A DNA stretch of 42,285 nucleotides from a virus (Duplodnaviria; Heunggongvirae; Uroviricota; Caudoviricetes). Of this stretch, positions 34,512 through 41,095 are shown one piece after another. The notes beneath the pieces were generated by a model. The model was not told the origin of the DNA, searched no databases, and saw only the letters and a program-made list of their open reading frames with translations. The stretch covers positions 1 to 42,285 of the IMG/VR virus record IMGVR_UViG_2778261056_000004, one strand, 5' to 3'. The position numbers and the translations under genes are program-made. Within the stretch, counting starts at the first letter, position 1; each line of letters begins with the position of its first letter.

Positions 34512-35138
34512 ATGGAAACAGTTGGTCAGCGCATTAAAGCCCTACGCAGGGTTACAAAAACCTCTCAAAAAGAACTGGGTAAGTTCTGCGGAGTGAGTGA
34601 CGTAGCGGTGGGTTATTGGGAAAAGGATGTGAATATCCCAAACGGAGAATCGCTGGTTAAGCTGGCTAAATTCTTCAATACATCAATAGATTACATTCTT
34701 TACGGCACTGAATTTGAAGGGACCCTCATAACTAAAATGAGGCGTGTGCCCGTGATTTCTTGGGTTCAAGCTGGGCAGTTTACGGAATGTAAGGCCGCTG
34801 ATTTATTCAGTGATGTCGATAAATGGGTTGAAACCTCACTACGTATTGGGGATAGCTCGTTCGCTTTAGAGGTCAAAGGGGATTCAATGACCAATCCAAA
34901 TGGCCTCCCAACAATTCCTGAAGGGGCAACCGTTATTGTCGATCCAGATGCCGAACCCCTTCATGGCAAGATTGTTGTTGCGCGTATTGATGGCACTAAC
35001 GAAGCGACTGTTAAAAAACTGGTCATTGATGGCCCACAAAAATTTTTAGTCCCACTAAATCCTCGCTACCCCAACATCCCGATCAATGGTAACTGCCTCA
35101 TTATTGGAGTAGTTAAAGGCGTTCAATACGAACTCTAA
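34512..35138 (+). CDS. CI-like prophage repressor, LexA-like (HTH plus peptidase S24 autocleavage domain)
   Basis: N-terminal HTH QKELGKFCGVSDVAVGYWE; Ala-Gly site (QAGQF), GDSM Ser and VKKL Lys as in LexA/lambda CI. Confidence 0.85.
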   Translation: METVGQRIKALRRVTKTSQKELGKFCGVSDVAVGYWEKDVNIPNGESLVKLAKFFNTSIDYILYGTEFEGTLITKMRRVPVISWVQAGQFTECKAADLFSDVDKWVETSLRIGDSSFALEVKGDSMTNPNGLPTIPEGATVIVDPDAEPLHGKIVVARIDGTNEATVKKLVIDGPQKFLVPLNPRYPNIPINGNCLIIGVVKGVQYEL

Positions 35139-37154: not shown

Positions 37155-37694
37155 ATGAGTTATATCCAGACACTTTCAGGTAAGAAATTCGATTACCTCA
37201 ATTCAACCACTGACGACGTAGAGATCGAGGATATTGCGACCGCACTTTCCCACATCTGCCGCTTCAGTGGTCATCTGCCGGAATTTTACAGCGTGGCCCA
37301 GCACTCGGTACTGTGCAGCCAAATTGTGCCGCCAGAGTTTGCCTTTGAAGCCCTGATGCATGACGCAGCTGAAGCCTATTGCCAGGACATCCCTGCCCCC
37401 CTGAAAGCATTGCTTCCAGATTACCGTCGCATTGAAGATCGGGTAGAACAGCTGATCCGGGCCAAATTCAGCATCACCCCTGATATGTCAGCGGTAGTGA
37501 AATACGCCGATCTGGTGATGCTTGCCACGGAACGCCGCGATCTGGACATCGACGACGGCTCACTCTGGCCTTGCCTCGAAGGTATTCCGGCCAGCGACAT
37601 GATCCAGATCGTTCCTCTTCGCCCAGGCCAGGCATATGGCTTGTTCATTAACCGTTTCAATGAGCTTACGGAATCACGCGCATGCCTCGCATGA
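37155..37694 (+). CDS. HD-domain phosphohydrolase (YfdR/YfbR-like 5'-deoxynucleotidase family)
   Basis: HD motif: VAQHSV...EALMHDAAEAY; 179 aa. Confidence 0.65.
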   Translation: MSYIQTLSGKKFDYLNSTTDDVEIEDIATALSHICRFSGHLPEFYSVAQHSVLCSQIVPPEFAFEALMHDAAEAYCQDIPAPLKALLPDYRRIEDRVEQLIRAKFSITPDMSAVVKYADLVMLATERRDLDIDDGSLWPCLEGIPASDMIQIVPLRPGQAYGLFINRFNELTESRACLA

Positions 37695-38951: not shown

Positions 38952-39851
38952 ATGAGCACTATTACCAAAGAATGGCTGCAGCAGAAAATTGCCGACATGG
39001 AAGCCATCCGCGATGATATCCCGTTCGGACTTGGCGAAGATGGAACCAATACACTGGCGGCGCTGCGTATCGCGCTGGCATCGCTCGAAGCGCAGGAGCC
39101 TGGGCGAAATCCCGTACTGGCCTATGCAGACAATTACCGCGATATGGCTAAGCATGGTGTTGAATCTATTCCGGTATGGAGCGTAATTACCGACCTGGAA
39201 AGAAATATAGCCCCGCTATACATCGCCCATCCAGCGCCGGTATCTGTGCCTGATATAGCGACAGTAGAAACGACATACCCAGACGTGCAGACAAACTGGC
39301 AGGACGCAAAGATGTACGCAGAAGGCTGGAACGCCTGCCGCTCCGTCATGCTTCAGGGTTCTGATGGTACCCTCACCAATGAATGTACCATACCAGCCAC
39401 GCAGTTTAAGCCGGTAGCAGACCTGTACGGCTTAACCTCACCAACTGGTGGTGAAACATCGTTCACTTTCGACGCTGTTGCAGCTCGTGATTTCATTGAT
39501 GGTGGTTGGTCATGCCAGGAGTACGTGGAGCTTGAACGCTTTCAGGAAGCGATAACCAACCATACCGAGGATAAGCTCGCTATGGTTGACCATTCCGGTG
39601 ACTCCAACAATATGGTTGAACCTGTAACGACGGCTTACAAGTTGCCAGAGGGGTGGGTGGCGGTGCCGGTTGAGCCGACAGAAGACATGATCGTCAATGG
39701 GTTCGAATCAGAGCCTGATGAGAGCTTTAGCGACGAGAGGGAATGGGAAGCGTACGACGCTATGAGTGGGTGTCAGCAGGCAGCGCACCGGGCAAAGCTA
39801 TGTTGGGCGGCGATGATTGCCGCGGCACCGCAGCAGGAGGTGAAGCTGTGA
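38952..39851 (+). CDS. hypothetical protein
   Basis: 299 aa acidic protein. Confidence 0.45.
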   Translation: MSTITKEWLQQKIADMEAIRDDIPFGLGEDGTNTLAALRIALASLEAQEPGRNPVLAYADNYRDMAKHGVESIPVWSVITDLERNIAPLYIAHPAPVSVPDIATVETTYPDVQTNWQDAKMYAEGWNACRSVMLQGSDGTLTNECTIPATQFKPVADLYGLTSPTGGETSFTFDAVAARDFIDGGWSCQEYVELERFQEAITNHTEDKLAMVDHSGDSNNMVEPVTTAYKLPEGWVAVPVEPTEDMIVNGFESEPDESFSDEREWEAYDAMSGCQQAAHRAKLCWAAMIAAAPQQEVKL

Positions 39852-40087
39852 CTAAATCAGAATTCCTCCAGAAGGTAGCGGTGCTGGCCGGTGAATGCCA
39901 TAAGTTGGCCTGTGAGCTTGACATAGGCGATGAGCGAATAGAGATGTTCGAGATTTATGAAGTGCTTCGCCGAATCCAGCGGAGTGGTGCAGCCGGTGAA
40001 ATGCTGGCTGCAACAAACCCTTTACTATCCCCTGGAATACCTGAGGACACTGAATGGGTAAATTTCCATAAAGAGGATGATGCCTGA
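39848..40087 (+). CDS. hypothetical small protein (GTG start)
   Basis: GTG overlapping upstream TGA with AGGAGG 8 nt upstream; the track ORF 39743..40087 is an N-terminally over-extended version. Confidence 0.35.
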   Translation: MTKSEFLQKVAVLAGECHKLACELDIGDERIEMFEIYEVLRRIQRSGAAGEMLAATNPLLSPGIPEDTEWVNFHKEDDA

Positions 40088-40266
40088 TGCCTAAGACAAT
40101 CATCATAACCATCGAAATTATTGATGTTCCGGATCACGCTACCGATAGCGACATATCAGATTGGGTAGACGTCGAGTACGGGCAGTGTGGTGGACAAAAA
40201 TTAGATAACCCCTGCCGTGGCGATGCCACTGAAGTAATAAACCATTCATGGAAATTTGAGAGCTAA
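40087..40266 (+). CDS. possible 59-aa ORF not in the ORF track
   Basis: ATGCCTAAGACAATCATC... translates MPKTIIITIEIIDVPDH... to a stop just before the exonuclease gene. Confidence 0.2.
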   Translation: MPKTIIITIEIIDVPDHATDSDISDWVDVEYGQCGGQKLDNPCRGDATEVINHSWKFES

Positions 40267-40268
40267 CG

Positions 40269-40841
40269 ATGAACGATTTAATGATTGACCTCGAATCAAT
40301 GGGCAAAAAGCCAAACGCGCCGATCGTTTCAATTGGTGCCGTCTTTTTTAACCCTCAAACAGGTGAACTTGGCCAAGAATTTTACACGGCCGTGTCGCTT
40401 GAAAGCGCAATGGCTCAAGGCGCGGTACCGGATGGAGATACAATTCTTTGGTGGCTAAAACAAAGCCCTGAAGCGCGCTCAGCTATTTGTGTTGATGATG
40501 CGATGCCTATCACTGATGCACTGTCGGAACTTAGCCATTTCATTCACCGGCATGCATATAATCTCAAATACATGAAGGTCTGGGGTAACGGGGCCACCTT
40601 TGACAATGTGATTCTGCGCGGAGCTTACGAACGCGCCGTGCGCATTTGCCCGTGGGAATTTTGGAACGATCATGATGTACGCACGATTGTTACCCTCGGT
40701 CGCAGTGTTGGTTTCGATCCGAAGCGTGACATGCCTTTCATTGGCGATGTTCACAACGCCCTGGCTGATGCGCGCCATCAGGCAAAATATGTGTCAGCAA
40801 TTTGGCAGAAACTTATCCCTGCCACCAGCACCAACGAGTAA
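40269..40841 (+). CDS. 3'-5' exonuclease, DEDD/DnaQ-like
   Basis: N-terminal MIDLESMG (DxE) and conserved acidic/His positions (HNALADA) typical of DEDDh exonucleases. Confidence 0.55.
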   Translation: MNDLMIDLESMGKKPNAPIVSIGAVFFNPQTGELGQEFYTAVSLESAMAQGAVPDGDTILWWLKQSPEARSAICVDDAMPITDALSELSHFIHRHAYNLKYMKVWGNGATFDNVILRGAYERAVRICPWEFWNDHDVRTIVTLGRSVGFDPKRDMPFIGDVHNALADARHQAKYVSAIWQKLIPATSTNE

Positions 40842-40885: not shown

Positions 40886-41095
40886 ATGGCAAAGCTAATG
40901 AAAGCGAGTCTCTGGAGTAAGCGCGAATTTACCAAAGACTCCATTCCTGACAACCGTACAATTAAACGTTGGGTCGAAAACGGATTACTCATGGGAAGGA
41001 TTGTAGATGGTTCAGTTTTTGTCTATGAAACCGAAAAGTGGGGAGTTGACTCAATTGTTAATCAGGCGGTACGTCAGTTAATAATTGAGGGTTGA
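40886..41095 (+). CDS. xis: excisionase
   Basis: Small basic protein directly upstream of and overlapping the integrase gene; RBS GGAGAAGGAAACC before ATG 40886. Confidence 0.55.
   Translation: MAKLMKASLWSKREFTKDSIPDNRTIKRWVENGLLMGRIVDGSVFVYETEKWGVDSIVNQAVRQLIIEG

What the first reader, a model, noticed from the sequence alone, without database searches (positions are those of the whole stretch)
40087..40266. Possible 59-aa ORF missing from the ORF track
An ATG-initiated frame (MPKTIIITIEIIDVPDH...) fills the gap upstream of the exonuclease gene; it is below the track length cutoff.
Basis: seen in the sequence. Interest (0 to 1): 0.2.

Follow-up and report, generated by a model that had tools for sequence, protein, structure and literature searches.

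The report
Small acidic prophage gene, function unknown
The 59-codon reading frame is a real, conserved but ordinary prophage gene for a tiny acidic protein of unknown function; public databases already list it as a "hypothetical protein", and the track missed it only because it is one codon short of the length cutoff.

Summary
The ORF at 40087-40266 (+) exists exactly as described and is a genuine protein-coding gene. It matches phage family phrog_8773 (E = 4e-23). The exact 59-aa sequence is already in NCBI as "hypothetical protein [Escherichia coli]". RefSeq annotates its 58-aa orthologue in the 4 related E. coli prophage records I opened that were reported with four hypothetical proteins, but not in a fifth where the frame is intact. 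Against the Pseudocitrobacter orthologue, 27 of 36 nucleotide differences fall at codon position 3 (pS 0.76, pN 0.07). Only this frame has phage-like codon usage, and a Shine-Dalgarno sequence precedes the ATG. About 75 relatives of 56-62 aa occur in lambdoid, Mu-like, T5-like and plasmid-like elements of Enterobacterales, always among small early accessory genes. All are acidic (median pI 4.3). A confident model (pLDDT 95.7) gives a strand-helix-loop-strand fold with no significant structural relative. No Pfam, NCBIfam, PADLOC or literature match exists. Members at least 79% identical always sit 2 nt upstream of the Rv2179c-like exonuclease gene; more distant members do not. The function is inferred only: most likely a dispensable early protein that binds another protein. 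This is ordinary and already known, so interest is low.

The parts
40087..40266 (+). CDS (59 aa plus TAA) of a small acidic phage protein, family phrog_8773
   Evidence: ORF confirmed. phrog_8773 at E = 4e-23. Homologues. pN/pS about 0.1. Codon-usage score +11.5 bits in this frame against negative scores in the other five. Orthologues are annotated by PGAP. The exact protein is in NCBI.
40071..40077 (+). Shine-Dalgarno-like AAGAGGA upstream of the ATG, lying inside the 3' end of the upstream gene
   Evidence: Read directly from the sequence. Most homologues carry a comparable GAGG/AGGAG/GGAGG motif before their start codon.
40085..40089 (+). TGATG junction: the stop codon of the upstream 79-aa gene overlaps the ATG by 1 nt, an arrangement that suggests translational coupling
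   Evidence: Sequence. The same junction is annotated in E. coli ECONIH5 and ECONIH4.
40117..40122 (+). ATTATT: an in-frame 3-nt tandem duplication that adds an extra Ile (residue 11 or 12). It is absent from all 75 other family members aligned.
   Evidence: Protein alignments; DNA alignment. Apart from this duplication the ORF is nucleotide-identical to that of ECONIH5. This exact allele is found on 11 public contigs.
40249..40266 (+). 3' end of the ORF, TGGAAATTTGAGAGCTAA. It is invariant at nucleotide level even in the Pseudocitrobacter and Izhakiella orthologues and contains the GAGAG Shine-Dalgarno (40258-40262) of the exonuclease gene.
   Evidence: DNA alignment. The 2-nt spacer to the exonuclease ATG is conserved in 27 of 27 loci of this clade.
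40269..40841 (+). Downstream neighbour: Rv2179c-like (DEDDh) 3'-5' exonuclease gene
   Evidence: PF16473 at E = 6e-72; phrog_255; PGAP product name '3'-5' exonuclease'.
39848..40087 (+). Upstream neighbour: 79-aa gene of unknown function (phrog_4220) starting at GTG 39848
   Evidence: phrog_4220 at E = 1.4e-29. The orthologue is annotated as 240 nt. The ORF lister extends this frame back to ATG 39743.

Best explanation
This is a genuine protein-coding gene in the early-left operon of a lambdoid E. coli prophage. The gene order there is cI-like repressor, accessory genes, this gene, exonuclease, excisionase-like gene, integrase. It encodes a 59-aa, strongly acidic (net charge -8, pI about 4.2), single-domain protein with a strand-helix-long loop-strand fold, belonging to phage family phrog_8773. 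That much is shown. It is presumably translated from the polycistronic early transcript: its start overlaps the upstream stop, and its last codons carry the ribosome-binding site of the exonuclease gene. Expression is inferred from this layout and was not measured. The mechanism is also inferred: a dispensable accessory ('moron-like') early protein that works stoichiometrically. It would bind another protein through its conserved acidic helix and loop, most probably a host factor or host defence component, rather than acting as an enzyme or a DNA binder. I give about 0.97 to 'real gene' and about 0.35 to this mechanism. The confidence of 0.85 entered below is for the gene call and family placement only, not for the mechanism.
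For: Gene reality:
- Full-length match to phrog_8773 at E = 4e-23.
- 9, then 74, homologues of 56-62 aa in the 5.8-billion-protein collection, and 17 representatives at 50% clustering.
- Window against Pseudocitrobacter: 36 differences, 27 at codon position 3, pS 0.76 against pN 0.07. Window against Izhakiella: omega about 0.06.
- Codon-usage log-odds of +11.5 bits in this frame and -15 to -53 bits in the other five.
- Shine-Dalgarno motifs before the starts.
- PGAP annotates the orthologues, and the exact sequence is in NCBI.
- The AlphaFold model of the 58-aa allele has pLDDT 95.7.

Accessory-protein reading:
- The family occurs in lambdoid early-left regions and in the region after the O/P replication genes of Stx-type phages.
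- It also occurs in the Mu-like early region between Gam and GemA/Mor, in T5-like early gene arrays and in a 107-kb plasmid-like element.
- It has at least 15 different downstream neighbours.
- Every member is acidic: median pI 4.3, median net charge -7.
- No catalytic or DNA-binding family matches.
- The abstract of Silas et al. [quoted passage not shown]
Against: Nothing argues against the gene being real. Against the proposed mechanism:
- There is no experimental datum and no homologue of known function.
- There is no PADLOC hit.
- The family is absent from the supplementary tables of two accessory-gene screens.
- Acidity and location are weak, generic indicators.
- The strict linkage to the exonuclease in the closest clade (27 of 27 loci) could point to a different role.
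- The window allele carries a unique extra Ile in strand 1, and its effect on folding is unknown. The model of the window sequence reached only pLDDT 67, although that run used a shallower alignment.
Confidence: 0.85

Rival explanations
1. The small protein is a dedicated partner of the adjacent Rv2179c-like 3'-5' exonuclease (regulator, inhibitor or specificity subunit). The two would be made in fixed ratio by translational coupling.
For: All 27 loci whose small protein is at least 79% identical to the window's have the exonuclease gene exactly 2 nt downstream. This holds although the upstream gene, the excisionase and the integrase differ between them. One 67%-identity member has the exonuclease 483 nt downstream (L052). 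The junction sequence is invariant. In these pairs the small protein (79-88% identity) is better conserved than the exonuclease (70-75%).
Against: Of the 42 loci whose member is 73% identical or less, 41 have no such exonuclease within the flanks held, and their downstream genes fall into at least 15 unrelated groups. Conversely, the same exonuclease (98-99% identical) occurs in phage Flotzy and in the E. coli CX strains behind an unrelated 73-aa gene, with the similarity breaking exactly at the exonuclease start. Each gene therefore exists without the other. The adjacency is explained by common descent of one clade, plus the nucleotide constraint of the exonuclease Shine-Dalgarno embedded in the ORF's end.
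Confidence: 0.15
2. The ORF matters mainly as a translated leader. Ribosomes reading it would deliver translation to the exonuclease start, and the peptide itself would have no function.
For: There is a 1-nt overlap with the upstream stop and a 2-nt spacer to the exonuclease ATG. The exonuclease Shine-Dalgarno lies inside the last codons, which are invariant at nucleotide level.
Against: The amino-acid sequence is under strong purifying selection along its whole length, with pN far below pS. The family is conserved down to 40-45% identity in phages where it is followed by unrelated genes, or by 100-230 nt gaps. It is predicted to fold with high confidence.
Confidence: 0.03
3. It is a chance open frame in an intergenic or regulatory stretch and not a gene.
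For: It is short, and many chance ORFs of similar length occur nearby. PGAP left the intact orthologue in E. coli SZQ1 unannotated. Pantoea phage G19 and phage IME392 also leave their copies unannotated.
Against: All the conservation, substitution-pattern, codon-usage and family evidence above argues against it. No Rfam family matches, and promoter-like and terminator-like sites are not more frequent than in shuffled sequence.
Confidence: 0.02

Closest known systems
phrog_8773 (PHROGs v4, unknown function); RefSeq WP_016240148.1 and WP_001515616.1, 'hypothetical protein'
   Same: Full-length HMM match (residues 3-56 against profile positions 2-54 of 61, E = 4e-23). Same length class. Same position upstream of the 3'-5' exonuclease in E. 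coli prophages integrated next to ppx. The window ORF is nucleotide-identical to that of ECONIH5 apart from one codon.
   Different: The window allele has one extra Ile codon (ATT duplication), giving 59 rather than 58 aa.
Non-essential accessory ORFs of the lambda/P22 early-left region (the ea/Ead-Ea22 type genes between the recombination genes and xis-int). This comparison rests on my own knowledge of lambdoid genome organisation.
   Same: Same kind of location: a delayed-early leftward operon just upstream of xis-int. The genes are small, mosaic and exchangeable, with function mostly unknown. Ead/Ea22-like and DUF551 genes are neighbours in related loci.
   Different: No sequence relationship to any of them was found, since there was no Pfam hit at all. 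The resemblance is positional only.
Small acidic phage inhibitor proteins that act by binding a host protein, some as DNA mimics (Ocr, ArdA, Ugi, phi29 p56, T7 Gp2). Named from my own knowledge as a functional analogy.
   Same: Size of about 60 aa, strongly acidic (pI about 4.2), early expression context, and no enzymatic motifs.
   Different: No detectable sequence or fold similarity to any solved structure. No target is known. This is an analogy, not membership.

Membership tests
phrog_8773 (small phage protein, unknown function) | Significant full-length match to the family HMM | tested here: met
   E = 4e-23, 82.4 bits, residues 3-56 against profile positions 2-54 of 61.
phrog_8773 (small phage protein, unknown function) | Near-invariant residues of the family (P14, D21, I22, D24, N40, E48, W54 in 58-aa numbering) | tested here: met
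   All are present in the window protein as P15, D22, I23, D25, N41, E49 and W55.
phrog_8773 (small phage protein, unknown function) | Length of about 56-62 aa, a single domain, and acidic composition | tested here: met
   The window protein is 59 aa with net charge -8 and pI 4.2. The family median is 58 aa with pI 4.3. The fold was modelled at pLDDT 95.7 for the 58-aa allele.
Any curated Pfam, NCBIfam or PADLOC family | A hit above or near the curated threshold | tested here: not met
   No hits at E up to 0.1 (Pfam and NCBIfam) or up to 1 (PADLOC).
DNA-mimic / small acidic inhibitor proteins (Ocr, ArdA, Ugi, p56) | Strongly negative surface charge in a small early phage protein | tested here: met
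   Net charge -8 over 59 aa. The whole family is acidic.
DNA-mimic / small acidic inhibitor proteins (Ocr, ArdA, Ugi, p56) | Sequence or fold similarity to a known member | tested here: not met
DNA-mimic / small acidic inhibitor proteins (Ocr, ArdA, Ugi, p56) | Binds and inhibits a DNA-binding host enzyme | not testable with these tools
   This needs pull-down or inhibition assays.
Accessory subunit of the Rv2179c-like exonuclease | Co-occurrence with the exonuclease across the whole family | tested here: not met
   27 of 27 loci in the clade at least 79% identical have it 2 nt downstream. None of the 42 more distant loci has it adjacent, and only one (L052) has it within the flank, 483 nt away. 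The exonuclease also occurs without the small gene.
Accessory subunit of the Rv2179c-like exonuclease | Physical interaction with the exonuclease | not testable with these tools

The most novel reading that the evidence does not exclude
The phrog_8773 proteins could be a previously unrecognised family of small acidic phage inhibitors with a new strand-helix-loop-strand fold. They would neutralise a host defence or housekeeping protein. Alternatively, in the clade that includes this window, they would modulate the adjacent DEDDh exonuclease. The family has spread by mosaic exchange among lambdoid, Mu-like, T5-like and plasmid-like elements of Enterobacterales.
Probability: 0.3. Interest if true: 0.45.

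Novelty: already known. Interest (0 to 1): 0.1.

Why it matters
It matters little on its own. The finding corrects a length-cutoff omission in the ORF track, and the gene is already in RefSeq and PHROGs as a hypothetical protein. It has modest value as a well-delimited family: about 75 clusters, acidic, confidently modelled, with no structural relatives. That family recurs in the early accessory regions of four very different kinds of enterobacterial mobile element, which makes it a reasonable low-cost candidate for screens of anti-defence or host-takeover genes. It also illustrates that PGAP and phage annotators call this gene inconsistently.

Tried and rejected
- Function by sequence: Pfam, NCBIfam and PADLOC scans gave nothing for the small protein. 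A profile search of PDB sequences gave only a chance hit at E = 1.7.
- Function by structure: the first AlphaFold run used the window sequence with 23 aligned sequences and was poor (pLDDT 67). I did not use it for fold searching.
- Non-coding alternatives: Rfam found no match at E up to 1. The promoter and terminator scans were not above the shuffled expectation.
- Literature: searches for the PHROG id, the RefSeq and GenBank accessions, peptide motifs, and 'Rv2179c' with 'prophage' all returned zero papers. The peptide motifs are absent from the supplementary files of two phage accessory-gene screens.
- Exonuclease partnership: I considered it and rated it low because each gene occurs without the other.
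- Metal or disulphide site from the two cysteines: I considered this and did not pursue it. Cys33 is present in only 45 of 76 members and Cys42 in 67 of 76.

Full report
**Observation**

The window carries an ATG at 40087 that opens a 59-codon frame ending at TAA 40264-40266. It translates to MPKTIIITIEIIDVPDHATDSDISDWVDVEYGQCGGQKLDNPCRGDATEVINHSWKFES. The ATG shares its A with the TGA stop of the upstream gene (TGATG, 40085-40089). The stop lies 2 nt before the ATG (40269) of the Rv2179c-like 3'-5' exonuclease gene (PF16473, E = 6e-72). A Shine-Dalgarno-like AAGAGGA sits at 40071-40077. Length alone is not evidence, because the same 4 kb holds dozens of chance ORFs of 25-100 aa.

**Is it a gene?**

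Yes, on five independent lines of evidence.

1. Family membership. It matches PHROG family phrog_8773 (unknown function) over its full length at E = 4e-23.
2. Homologues.
   - Nine clusters at 78-95% identity turned up in the 5.8-billion-protein collection.
   - Seventeen representatives turned up in the 50%-clustered library.
   - A profile search gave 74 clusters. Nearly all are 56-62 aa, and all those that carry a name are called 'hypothetical protein' from Escherichia, Salmonella, Klebsiella, Enterobacter, Citrobacter, Pantoea or Izhakiella.
3. Substitution pattern.
   - Against the Pseudocitrobacter faecalis orthologue there are 36 nucleotide differences, 27 of them at codon position 3 (pS 0.76, pN 0.07).
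   - Against Izhakiella, omega is about 0.06.
   - Pseudocitrobacter against Izhakiella gives omega 0.12.
   - The only length difference among close relatives is an in-frame codon.
4. Codon usage. A codon-usage log-odds score trained on the window's 28 long ORFs is +11.5 bits for this frame and -15 to -53 bits for the other five.
5. Existing annotation.
   - RefSeq/PGAP annotates the 58-aa orthologue (WP_016240148.1, WP_001515616.1) in the four records I opened that were reported with four hypothetical proteins.
   - The exact 59-aa window sequence is in NCBI as 'hypothetical protein [Escherichia coli]' on 11 contigs.
   - One 58-aa member of the neighbouring cluster is found on 755 contigs.

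No Rfam family matches the region. Promoter-like and terminator-like sites are not enriched.

**Context**

The gene lies in a tightly packed array of + strand genes:
- a cI/LexA-type repressor (34512-35138, phrog_4);
- several unknowns, including a deoxyribonucleoside 5'-monophosphate phosphatase homologue (37155-37694);
- a 299-aa mosaic protein and a 79-aa phrog_4220 protein;
- this gene, then the exonuclease;
- a 69-aa excisionase-like gene (40886-41095) and the integrase, which ends at the last base of the window.

This is the organisation of a lambdoid early-left operon. In E. coli ECONIH5 the same module abuts ppx.

**Distribution of the family**

I examined 69 loci in all: 5 E. coli chromosomal loci, 3 phage records, 2 from the species-genome collection, 14 from exact-protein look-ups and 45 IMG/VR viral contigs. 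The frame is present and intact in every one. The settings are diverse:
- lambdoid early-left regions;
- the region after the O/P replication genes and an Ead/Ea22 gene in Stx-type phages;
- the early region between Gam and GemA/Mor of Mu-like prophages of Salmonella and Klebsiella;
- an array of small early ORFs in the 111-kb phage EP_H11;
- a 107-kb Klebsiella plasmid-like element;
- Pantoea phage G19, where it is not annotated.

The downstream gene falls into at least 15 unrelated groups.

**Link to the exonuclease**

All 27 loci whose protein is at least 79% identical to the window's have the Rv2179c-like exonuclease gene exactly 2 nt downstream. This holds even where the upstream gene, the excisionase and the integrase differ (Izhakiella, Enterobacter cloacae). 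None of the 42 loci at 73% identity or less has it adjacent. One of them (L052) has it 483 nt away.

The converse also holds. Phage Flotzy, related phages and the E. coli CX strains carry a 98-99% identical exonuclease-xis-int block. Their similarity to the window begins exactly at the exonuclease start, and a different 73-aa gene precedes it.

The last 18 nt of the ORF (TGGAAATTTGAGAGCTAA, 40249-40266) are invariant at nucleotide level across E. coli, Pseudocitrobacter and Izhakiella, and they contain the exonuclease's GAGAG Shine-Dalgarno. The pairing is therefore best read as one clade inheriting a two-gene cassette whose junction is constrained by an embedded ribosome-binding site. It does not show a family-wide functional partnership.

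**The protein**

The family is uniformly acidic (median pI 4.3, median net charge -7; the window protein is -8, pI 4.2). The near-invariant positions are P14, D21, I22, D24, N40, E48 and W54 in 58-aa numbering, and the window protein has all of them.

AlphaFold2 with a 76-sequence alignment models the 58-aa allele at pLDDT 95.7 and pTM 0.76. The fold is strand 5-12, helix 19-29, a long ordered loop carrying the G-x-C...K-x-D-N-P-C motif, and strand 48-56. A first run on the window sequence with only 23 aligned sequences was poor (pLDDT 67). I cannot separate the effect of the shallower alignment from that of the extra Ile.

**Mechanism**

What is shown:
- it is a conserved coding gene;
- its layout in the operon (overlapping start, embedded downstream Shine-Dalgarno) is the kind that gives translational coupling;
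- the product is small, acidic and predicted to be well folded;
- the gene moves by mosaic exchange among the early accessory regions of unrelated phage types.

Transcription and translation themselves were not measured.

What is inferred: such genes are typically dispensable for growth in laboratory hosts and act on host physiology or defences. The abstract of Silas et al. (10.1101/2023.04.06.535777, seen) states this expectation for uncharacterised phage accessory genes. A 59-aa acidic protein without catalytic motifs most plausibly works by binding and blocking or modulating another protein. I put about 0.35 on that reading, about 0.15 on a specific role with the neighbouring exonuclease, and a few per cent on a pure leader-peptide role or a non-gene.

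**Literature**

No paper in the held library mentions the PHROG id, the accessions or the peptide motifs. None combines 'Rv2179c' with 'prophage'. The motifs are absent from the supplements of two accessory-gene screens.

**Verdict**

The feature is an ordinary small phage gene of unknown function that is already annotated. Novelty: already known. Interest: low.

Noticed in passing
window 40117-40122: The window allele has an in-frame ATT duplication (IEIID instead of IEID) inside predicted strand 1. None of the 75 other aligned family members has it. Otherwise the ORF is nucleotide-identical to that of E. coli ECONIH5. The exact 59-aa allele is found on 11 public contigs, against 755 for one 58-aa allele of the neighbouring cluster.
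   Followed up: partly
L002 1788-1964 (E. coli SZQ1, NZ_CP173996.1); L003 2459-2641 (Pantoea phage G19); hit H19 (phage vB_EcoM_IME392): Intact family members are left unannotated in these records. PGAP annotates the same gene in the four other E. coli records I opened, so small-gene calling is inconsistent. The SZQ1 copy differs from the ECONIH4 allele only by Gly35Arg.
   Followed up: partly
window 40269-40270; L008 about 2000 (phage Flotzy); hits H8-H12 and H14-H16: There is a mosaic breakpoint exactly at the exonuclease start codon. Flotzy, Eeyore, LLS and five E. coli CX strains share the exonuclease-xis-int block at 90-98% identity, but they carry an unrelated 73-aa gene (MPSKLKQRRLRRLK...) in place of this ORF.
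   Followed up: yes
window 40249-40266: The last six codons, stop included, are invariant at nucleotide level even where synonymous sites elsewhere are saturated. This is apparently because they hold the exonuclease Shine-Dalgarno (GAGAG). In the exonuclease-linked clade the C-terminus is almost always WKFES, whereas it varies elsewhere in the family.
   Followed up: partly
window 39743-40087; L044 downstream ORF: The ORF lister extends the upstream gene to ATG 39743 (114 aa). Orthologues are annotated from GTG 39848 (79 aa, phrog_4220), which overlaps the stop of the 299-aa gene (GTGA). In IMG/VR locus L044 a homologue of this 79-aa protein lies downstream, not upstream, of the small-gene homologue, so the gene order is permuted.
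   Followed up: no
window 40886-41095: The 69-aa gene between the exonuclease and the integrase is in the position of an excisionase. It has no PHROG or NCBIfam match, only a sub-threshold Pfam helix-turn-helix hit (DUF4817, E = 0.015). RefSeq calls it a hypothetical protein (WP_001515618.1).
   Followed up: no
window 38952-39851; L052 downstream ORF; L006 2117-3001: The 299-aa protein upstream is a mosaic. Its C-terminal about 70 residues (...PTEDMIVNGFE...KLCWAAMIAAAPQQE) recur in a 157-aa protein of L052. Its N-terminus and the 'LYAAPPAPV'-type linker recur in other accessory proteins, which is typical domain shuffling of Ead/Ea22-like and DUF551-like phage proteins.
   Followed up: no
cluster of P0001: One UniRef entry in the same 90% cluster is named 'Cellulose binding domain protein' (Siphoviridae sp. 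ct5lU19). Nothing in the sequence or the model supports that name, so it looks like a propagated mis-annotation.
   Followed up: no
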